Positions 5,442 to 6,749 of a stretch of 64,000 nt of DNA are shown in pieces (positions within the stretch are counted from its first letter, which is position 1; each line of letters begins with the position of its first letter). The position numbers and the translations under genes were made by a program. Source of the stretch: Eledone cirrhosa (Eukaryota); contig OZ024740.1 in the NCBI GenBank assembly GCA_964016885.1, positions 349,556,001-349,620,000 on the forward strand, given 5' to 3'. Below the pieces are notes generated by a model. That model was not told where the DNA came from. It saw only the letters and a program-made list of their open reading frames with translations, and searched no databases.

Positions 5442-6441
<1,000 letters not shown>

Positions 6442-6583
6442 GTGGGACTGGAGTGTGCATAATGTGTAGGAGCAAAGGATGGTTGAGGGAGTTCCGTGTG
6501 TTTTATTATGCGCATTTCAAAATATGTTGATTTAAAACTGAACTATCCACAAGTGTTTTTTAACCTTCATATCATGTCTTCCT

Positions 6584-6652
6584 GTTTTATCTGATGAAAA
6601 CACAAATATTATTGCATGATGATATTTGTTTTTGAAATGCGCATAATAAAAT
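6584..6652 (+). ncRNA. Type I hammerhead ribozyme (minimal, palindromic stem III)
   Basis: gttttat CTGATGA aaacacaaatatta...tgatatttgttttt GAAA tgcgca TA ataaaat. Confidence 0.8.
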
Positions 6653-6685
6653 ACATGGAACTCTTTTAACCATCTTTTGTTCTTA

Positions 6686-6749
6686 TATATTACATATACA
6701 TATATATACATATATATATATATACACACATATATATATATATACACAC

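What the first reader, a model, noticed from the sequence alone, without database searches (positions are those of the whole stretch)
6441..6692. Genomic fold-back arm with only A->G changes: candidate ADAR-hyperedited RNA reverse-transcribed into DNA
Seen: 6460-6522 is the reverse complement of 6630-6692 (63 nt) with 10 mismatches, all A->G on the + strand (6464, 6466, 6469, 6472, 6477, 6485, 6487, 6488, 6496, 6500). Family copies at 27.95 kb and 29.7 kb have A at the alignable sites, so G looks derived. Against the 29761-29771 flank (reverse complement tagaactagagtata), 6443-6457 (tgggactggagtgtg) shows further A->G changes. The 5' neighbours are mostly T or A. Known: this is the ADAR neighbour preference, cephalopods edit RNA heavily, and inosine is copied as G by reverse transcriptase. 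Inference: a hairpin RNA from this hammerhead element was A-to-I hyperedited and then retrotransposed, i.e. RNA editing became heritable. Alternative: selection for G-U pairs in an RNA hairpin.
Basis: partly seen in the sequence, partly recalled or inferred. Interest (0 to 1): 0.85.

Follow-up and report, generated by a model that had tools for sequence, protein, structure and literature searches.

The report
RNA edits copied into octopus DNA
One copy of a jumping-gene family in an octopus-group genome carries 13 clustered A-to-G changes, and at least 14 other copies carry similar clusters, two of them with an unchanged source copy on another chromosome, which likely means that RNA edited by the enzyme ADAR was copied back into DNA and so became heritable.

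Summary
Observation confirmed. The arms 6460-6522 and 6630-6692 differ by 10 changes, all A->G. Against 29 sister copies the window copy has 13 A->G in its first 60 nt and one other difference, a common variant. It is a short copy of a Hydra-clade Penelope-like retroelement (at least 13,178 arms) in an octopod genome that encodes ADAR2. Four motif searches gave 21 copies, 15 with 9-37 one-way changes in an arm; a G->A control gave none. Changes sit in pairing arms, spare the unpaired tail and favour a 5' U or A. Two edited copies have unedited sources on other chromosomes: 95 of 98 and 68 of 69 substitutions are A->G on one strand. Nine copies carry the same changes mirrored in both arms, which read errors cannot easily produce. 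ADAR editing followed by reverse transcription is therefore well supported for the family. For this copy three gaps remain: no source copy found, only one arm edited, and the G version absent from contigs of three runs of one sample. Ten literature searches found no report of ADAR-edited retroelement copies in a cellular genome.

The parts
6441..6692 (+). Short non-coding insertion of a Penelope-like (Hydra-clade) retroelement: inverted tail piece + inverted arm + sense pseudo-LTR end
   Evidence: 40 scored copies at 89-94% identity of 635 candidates; alignment and flanks; same ends flank an 821-aa RT-endonuclease frame in longer copies
6441..6459 (-). Inverted tail, about 70 nt shorter than in sister copies; begins at an internal repeat of the normal terminal heptamer; 3 A->G on + (6444, 6455, 6457)
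   Evidence: the same short start found in 2 places genome-wide, this copy and unedited L106
6460..6522 (-). Inverted (antisense) arm with 10 A->G on the + strand, none in the inner 22 nt
6523..6692 (+). Sense pseudo-LTR end, unchanged; other copies match it at 99-100%
6583..6653 (+). Type I minimal hammerhead-like motif: core boxes at 6591-6597 and 6634-6637, stem I 6583-6590 with 6646-6653, long stem II, palindromic stem III 6638-6643; activity untested
   Evidence: read from the sequence; stems I and II appear in the centroid fold, z -1.4; no Rfam hammerhead match
6630..6692 (+). Sense arm, partner of 6460-6522; 0 of 21 A changed
   Evidence: + strand folds as one long hairpin, -109.3 kcal/mol, z -12.2
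5441..6440 (.). Left (TA)n target array with CA interruptions on + (63 CA, 4 TG)
6693..8022 (.). Right (TA)n target array with CA interruptions on + (103 CA, 2 TG)
27941..28345 (-). Older relative of the same family (about 78% identical over the shared part), A at the alignable sites
29381..29850 (+). Older relative with tail, inverted partner of 27941-28345 (88%); end coordinate read by eye

Best explanation
The stretch is a short copy of a Hydra-clade Penelope-like retroelement whose 13 A->G changes were likely made by ADAR on a fold-back RNA and then likely fixed in DNA when the element's reverse transcriptase copied that RNA into a (TA)n site. Shown: copies of this family usually lie as inverted pairs of arms; a minority carry one-strand A->G clusters confined to pairing arms; two such copies have unedited sources on other chromosomes. 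Inferred: a read-through transcript of a source copy folds into a long duplex, ADAR turns many A into inosine, reverse transcriptase writes C opposite inosine, and the new insertion carries G. For this copy the edited RNA must have held the antisense arm in + orientation, so it came from an already folded-back source. The untouched sense arm would then reflect either one-strand editing of a 63-bp duplex or a template jump from an unedited to an edited RNA.
For: Window: 13 of 14 differences are A->G; 5' neighbour edited U 7/9, A 4/8, C 1/3, G 0/5 (12 of the 13 sites scored, Fisher P 0.039). Family: 15 of 21 candidate copies have 9-37 one-way changes in an arm; G->A control 0 hits. Pooled 5' context: sense tracts U 61/92, A 81/143, C 12/79, G 18/60; antisense tracts U 57/71, A 72/113, C 20/66, G 7/40; 3' A highest, no 3' G gain, as reported for invertebrate hyper-editing (PMC5625713, passages). 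Pair 1 (C3 source, C1 copy): 95 of 98 substitutions in 1,599 aligned nt are A->G on one strand; hairpin 57 of 90 sites, tail 0 of 31, middle of the neighbouring LINE 1 of 114. Pair 2 (C11 source, C2 copy): hairpin 65 of 65 substitutions, tail 0 in 88 nt, flank 3 of 4. Both copies end in TA arrays and their outer flanks do not match the source. Mirrored edits in both arms: 11 of 12 (L070), 10 of 10 (L083), 6 of 7 (L068), 6 of 6 at 3.9 kb distance (L045). Host ADAR2 exon is 95% identical to Octopus vulgaris ADAR2.
Against: No source for this copy: none of 40 scored candidates matches its junction exactly, none of 40 shares its right flank in full, and the only other copy with the short start is of another subfamily. 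The sense arm has no edits, whereas the five other whole-hairpin copies have 11-28 in theirs. Contigs of three runs of one sample give no depth at 6441-6494. In sense tracts C neighbours are edited less than G neighbours, not the textbook U>A>C>G order. No RNA run was listed, so editing of this family's RNA was not seen directly.
Confidence: 0.74

Rival explanations
1. Same ADAR origin, but written in place: an ordinary insertion at this locus was transcribed and edited, and after a break in the fold-back the left arm alone was re-made on its own edited RNA.
For: It explains the unique junction, the missing source and the one-arm asymmetry at once. Junctions differ between copies regardless of subfamily, so most fold-backs form at insertion.
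Against: The two cases where a source could be traced are new insertions on other chromosomes. The left TA array shows almost no A->G on + next to the arm (4 TG in 1 kb). RNA-templated repair in this lineage is recalled from general knowledge, not tested.
Confidence: 0.12
2. The Gs of this one copy are an assembly or read artefact in a hairpin between long TA arrays.
For: G-bearing words are missing from three contig sets of one sample. Systematic mismatch-cluster artefacts are known in other data types (PMC2873906, passages).
Against: The tool states that contigs drop rare variants and that a hole proves nothing; the sample may be another animal. A fourth run of another sample has depth 7-9 at about 6488-6522, covering G6496 and G6500, a pair found once in the assembly; whether that run is RNA or DNA is not on record. 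The window's edited sites recur in other copies, and mirrored copies carry identical changes on opposite strands.
Confidence: 0.06
3. The changes arose on the cDNA side: ADAR acting on the DNA strand of an RNA:cDNA hybrid, or G placed opposite U by reverse transcriptase when dATP is short, while the inverted arm was being made.
For: If the inverted arm is a second cDNA primed from the left target end, its + strand is the cDNA, and one-arm A->G would follow.
Against: Tails are copied by the same enzyme yet stay unedited (0 of 31, 0 in 88 nt). In all nine mirrored copies the change is A->G on the RNA sense strand, not on the cDNA. Five copies have both arms changed on one strand. Both mechanisms are recalled, not tested.
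Confidence: 0.06
4. Gradual mutation with selection for G-U pairs, or a separate G-rich subfamily.
For: All ten changes keep the + strand hairpin as G-U pairs.
Against: The rest of the copy equals the young family majority, so there was no time; the G pattern occurs once; source and copy pairs are otherwise about 99.8% identical.
Confidence: 0.01

Closest known systems
APOBEC-edited LTR retrotransposons in vertebrate genomes (Knisbacher and Levanon, PMC4866542; passages seen)
   Same: Single genomic copies with dense one-way clusters against the family majority, enzyme-typical context, fixed during retrotransposition.
   Different: There G->A from cytosine deamination of cDNA, in LTR elements, reported absent from 19 invertebrates; here A->G, confined to pairing arms, in a Penelope-like element of a mollusc. 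Their filter selected G-to-A and not A-to-G.
ADAR-linked A->G hypermutation of avian retroviruses RAV-1 and ALV, and HTLV-2/STLV-3 in culture (as reviewed in PMC8586724; passages seen; originals not read)
   Same: A-to-I edited RNA passed through reverse transcriptase into DNA.
   Different: Those are infectious viruses; here the copies are resident in a chromosome-level animal assembly, with source loci and co-copied flanks up to about 7.5 kb.
RNA-level hyper-editing of repeats in octopus and of Penelope in lizard (PMC5625713; passages seen)
   Same: Same substrate type, upstream G depletion and downstream A preference.
   Different: Seen there as RNA-versus-DNA mismatches; here the mismatch is between DNA copies.
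Hydra clade of Penelope-like elements (PMC8557442; section 11 read, passages elsewhere)
   Same: Single frame with RW and DKT motifs, CxCx5C linker, CxxC and CxH motifs, (TA)n targets, inverted truncated copy, tail on one side, hammerhead motif.
   Different: No tree was built; edited copies are not described in the parts read; supplements not seen.

Membership tests
Penelope-like element (EN+) | Pseudo-LTR with inverted 5'-truncated copy and a tail on one side | tested here: met
   tail is about 87 nt here against 30-40 in PMC8557442
Penelope-like element (EN+) | Single frame with RT followed by a GIY-YIG-type endonuclease | tested here: inconclusive
   821-aa frame with YRDD at 378 and a C-terminal region read by eye as endonuclease-like; Pfam scan gave no relevant family; 25 homologues at 31-42%, one named, uninformatively
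Hydra clade | RW(K) and DKT motifs, CxCx5C linker, CxxC and CxH motifs | tested here: met
   RWT 58, DKT 144, CxCx5C 680, CxxC 780, CxH 808 in P0001 against section 11 of PMC8557442
Hydra clade | Insertion into (TA)n | tested here: met
   right flank TA-type in 28 of 30 loci; L029 has (GA)n and L024 carries the tail there
Hydra clade | Placement in the RT phylogeny | not tested
   no reference Hydra proteins were held
Hammerhead ribozyme (type I, minimal) | Core boxes with three stems | tested here: inconclusive
   boxes and stems I, II present by eye and in the fold; stem III is a loopless palindrome (dimer form recalled); Rfam no match
Hammerhead ribozyme (type I, minimal) | Self-cleavage | not testable with these tools
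   needs in vitro transcription
ADAR hyper-editing signature | Dense A->G on one strand | tested here: met
   control
ADAR hyper-editing signature | Confined to double-stranded regions | tested here: met
   tails 0 of 31 and 0 in 88 nt; one change in the tail of L035; window site 6444 lies outside the predicted duplex
ADAR hyper-editing signature | Depletion of G 5' of the edited A | tested here: met
   P 0.007 (sense) and 7e-7 (antisense); positions recur between copies, so sites are not independent
ADAR hyper-editing signature | Same edits seen in RNA against DNA of one animal | not testable with these tools
   no RNA holder listed
Retrocopy | Unedited source elsewhere, bounded copy, different flanks | tested here: inconclusive
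   met for L032 and L034; not found for the window copy

The most novel reading that the evidence does not exclude
In octopods, ADAR plus Penelope-like reverse transcriptase form a standing RNA-to-DNA mutagen: edited read-through RNAs of several kb, with neighbouring repeats and (UA)n arrays, are written into the germ line, sometimes over their own locus, and this produces a real share of the mixed TA/CA microsatellites that fill these genomes and can fix edits in host sequence.
Probability: 0.3. Interest if true: 0.93.

Novelty: new variant of a known kind. Interest (0 to 1): 0.8.

Why it matters
It gives sequence-level cases, with source and copy side by side, of A-to-I edits entering an animal genome, in the lineage that edits RNA most heavily. 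Edited copies are a DNA record of ADAR activity in cells that pass on DNA (germ line inferred from presence in the assembly). The edits also act as strand marks for the unsettled Penelope mechanism: Arkhipova et al. (PMC3846280, passages) proposed self-priming on an antisense template and left the sense route open, whereas all nine mirrored copies here carry sense-strand edits, which fits two cDNAs made on one sense RNA from two start sites (cf. PMC11167929). Heavily edited copies lose hammerhead core bases (L032, L034), so ADAR may also disable copies, as APOBECs do in vertebrates.

Tried and rejected
Rfam at gathering level over the window: 0 matches; at E<=10 over 6520-6700: 12 weak unrelated matches. 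Repeat finder swamped by TA arrays. Pfam did not classify the element's frame or three homologues. Sequencing runs: no RNA holder listed; contigs of X1-X3 have no cover at 6441-6494. Search for the window copy's source by junction, right flank and short start: none among those scored. L109, the third hit, has a different junction and is not a source. Five background arms with 4-7 like changes proved to be older-subfamily variants shared by L055, L060, L062. Six of 21 candidates (L073, L075, L077, L079, L081, L084) have only 2-4 changes and were left out of the count of 15; two of the seven sites are common variants. L037's sense arm (older subfamily) and the weak copies were left out of the context count; L045 was not in it. 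A MITE reading was dropped because the ends are asymmetric and flank an RT frame. over- and under-masked arrays and was redone. Earlier findings of the scan: nothing. Ten paper searches found no report of ADAR-edited retroelement copies in a cellular genome; the library lacks most subscription papers and no supplements were read.

Full report
Observation. The 252-nt stretch 6441-6692 lies between two TA arrays of 1.0 and 1.3 kb. Its arms differ at exactly the ten stated positions, all A->G on +. The genome is 3.0 Gb; an ADAR2 exon in it is 95% identical to Octopus vulgaris ADAR2, so the host is an octopod. A search with the stretch scored 40 of 635 candidates at 89-94% identity. Against 29 of them the window copy differs from the column majority at 14 positions, 13 of them A->G within the first 60 nt. 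With 33 A sites in 6441-6522 and a background of 0.0077 per site, P is about 2e-19. The pair G6496 plus G6500 occurs once in the assembly. The G version is derived and private.

The element. Sister copies read TA array, inverted tail and arm, sense pseudo-LTR end, TA array. A 34-nt arm motif has 13,178 exact matches. Of 20 longer loci picked by position, several hold a frame of about 740-820 aa between the same ends. P0001 has YRDD, RWT, DKT, CxCx5C, CxxC and CxH, the marks given for the Hydra clade (PMC8557442 section 11); Pfam does not recognise it and no tree was built. The sense end holds a minimal hammerhead-like motif on the coding strand that Rfam does not match. The inverted part varies in length and its junction does not follow subfamily; rare variants are shared by both arms 17 times and seen in one arm 54 times. 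Fold-backs are thus likely made at insertion. A transcript through such a copy is a long duplex: the window's + strand folds at -109.3 kcal/mol, z -12.2.

Other edited copies. Four motif searches that need about four G among seven or more A sites gave 39 rows, 21 distinct copies. Fifteen have 9-37 changes of one type in an arm; six have 2-4 and are not counted. The matching G->A search gave 0. A pile-up over 137 kb of repeat-covered sequence, enriched for these loci, gave 29 clusters: 28 A->G or T->C, one C->T. Among 49 loci not chosen for editing, one (L045) has such a cluster. Fifteen copies against roughly 6,600 insertions is about 0.2%, a lower bound from short probes.

Three geometries. 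Five copies have both arms changed on the same strand: the whole hairpin RNA was copied. Nine (four strong, five weak, L045 among them) have the same changes mirrored in both arms, always A->G on the coding strand: 11 of 12 positions in L070, 10 of 10 in L083, 6 of 7 in L068, 6 of 6 in L045 with arms 3.9 kb apart. Identical changes on opposite strands are hard to get from read error and suggest that both arms were copied from one edited sense RNA, although fold-back DNA synthesis or later conversion between arms would also mirror them. Four copies have a single edited sense arm. The window copy and L089 are edited on antisense sequence only.

Context. Edited over total A by 5' neighbour: sense tracts U 61/92, A 81/143, C 12/79, G 18/60; antisense tracts U 57/71, A 72/113, C 20/66, G 7/40; window 7/9, 4/8, 1/3, 0/5. 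3' A is the most edited class and 3' G is not enriched, as reported for invertebrates (PMC5625713, passages). In sense tracts C falls below G, a departure from the usual order.

Source and copy pairs. A junction search around L032 (C1) found an unedited twin on C3. In 1,599 aligned nt, 95 of 98 substitutions are A->G on one strand: hairpin 57 of 90 sites, tail 0 of 31, the two ends of the neighbouring LINE 9 of 12 and 17 of 44, its middle 1 of 114, the following frame fragment 1 of 93. The edited LINE ends have inverted partners 4-7 kb away in the source; part of the unedited middle has one too. The copy stops inside the frame that the source continues, and both ends lie in TA arrays. A flank search around L034 (C2) found a twin on C11: hairpin 65 of 65 substitutions of the same type, tail 0 in 88 nt, flank 3 of 4; the shared block is about 7.5 kb. 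The C11 source has several 1-nt indels and may be less well assembled. Co-copied TA arrays have more C in the copy: 0.32-0.37 against 0.16-0.25, and 0.38 against 0.10-0.14. These pairs show that one-step, one-strand, duplex-confined A->G separates a copy from its source on another chromosome; ADAR followed by reverse transcription is the inference.

What is weaker for this copy. No exact source was found among 40 scored candidates by junction or flank; the short start is shared only with an unedited copy of another subfamily. Its sense arm has 0 of 21 A changed, while the five whole-hairpin copies have 11-28 changes there. Contigs of three runs of one sample have no depth over 6441-6494; a fourth run of another sample has depth 7-9 over about 6488-6522, which includes G6496 and G6500, but its type is not on record. 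The flanking arrays carry CA on +, the opposite strand to the arm's changes, so they were not edited with it. I put ADAR origin at about 0.86 in all: 0.74 as a new insertion from an edited RNA, 0.12 as rewriting in place; artefact 0.06; cDNA-side change 0.06.

Comparison and novelty. It works like APOBEC-edited LTR copies in vertebrates (PMC4866542, passages) but with another enzyme, substrate and host, and like ADAR-hypermutated avian retroviruses (review PMC8586724, passages) but in resident chromosomal copies. Popitsch et al. discuss G alleles at edited sites as ordinary mutation under selection in the passages seen (PMC7186786). Zaranek et al. report RNA editing and G->A DNA editing in traces (PMC2873906, passages). 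PMC9148063 passages held nothing relevant. PMC11167929 was read in parts 1-2 of 4. Ten searches found no report of this; subscription papers and supplements were not seen. Twin priming, dimeric minimal hammerheads, dNTP-bias misincorporation, ADAR on hybrids and RNA-templated repair are recalled, not from calls. Verdict: real in the assembly, well supported at family level, a new variant of a known kind, interest 0.8.

Noticed in passing
window 1835-16098, and about 10 kb upstream (L102): Nearly all TA arrays carry CA, not TG, interruptions on +; similar one-strand runs of 12-15 kb surround L032 and L034. Adjacent arrays in 49 background loci agree 16 of 23 times. Could be edited (UA)n RNA copied into DNA, or transcription-strand mutation bias spread by slippage.
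   Followed up: partly
window 4639-8367 and 19410-20667: Two paralogous units (LINE 3' end, short trinucleotide run, TA array, second repeat); the second has a 154-nt nearly pure TA array and no Penelope-like copy, like an empty site.
   Followed up: partly
L045:838-872 and 4729-4763: A copy with an 821-aa open frame carries a six-site A->G cluster in its 3' non-coding part, mirrored in the inverted arm 3.9 kb away.
   Followed up: yes
L037:about 1270-1310 (L103:9314-9353): A different hairpin-forming repeat next to edited copy L037 has nine A->G on the same strand, so other families are co-edited or co-copied.
   Followed up: no
L089:1490-1830: Antisense arm with 22 changes joined directly to a tail-TA-tail hairpin that is edited on both sides; the sense arm is missing.
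   Followed up: partly
L093:3694-5874: A 2.2-kb LINE piece 99.8% identical to a piece near the C11 source of L034 but inverted and separated from the main shared block by 1.3 kb.
   Followed up: no
G000:C6:13644405-13646174 (L115, L116): The ADAR2 deaminase domain lies in two long pieces here; A_deamin hits also at C1:146.4 Mb, C1:320.7 Mb and C25:17.35 Mb, not typed further.
   Followed up: partly
L002:1773-1891 and L007:140-277: A second fold-back repeat family between TA arrays; not screened for edited copies.
   Followed up: no
window 30082-30255: 33-nt inverted repeat, 97%.
   Followed up: no
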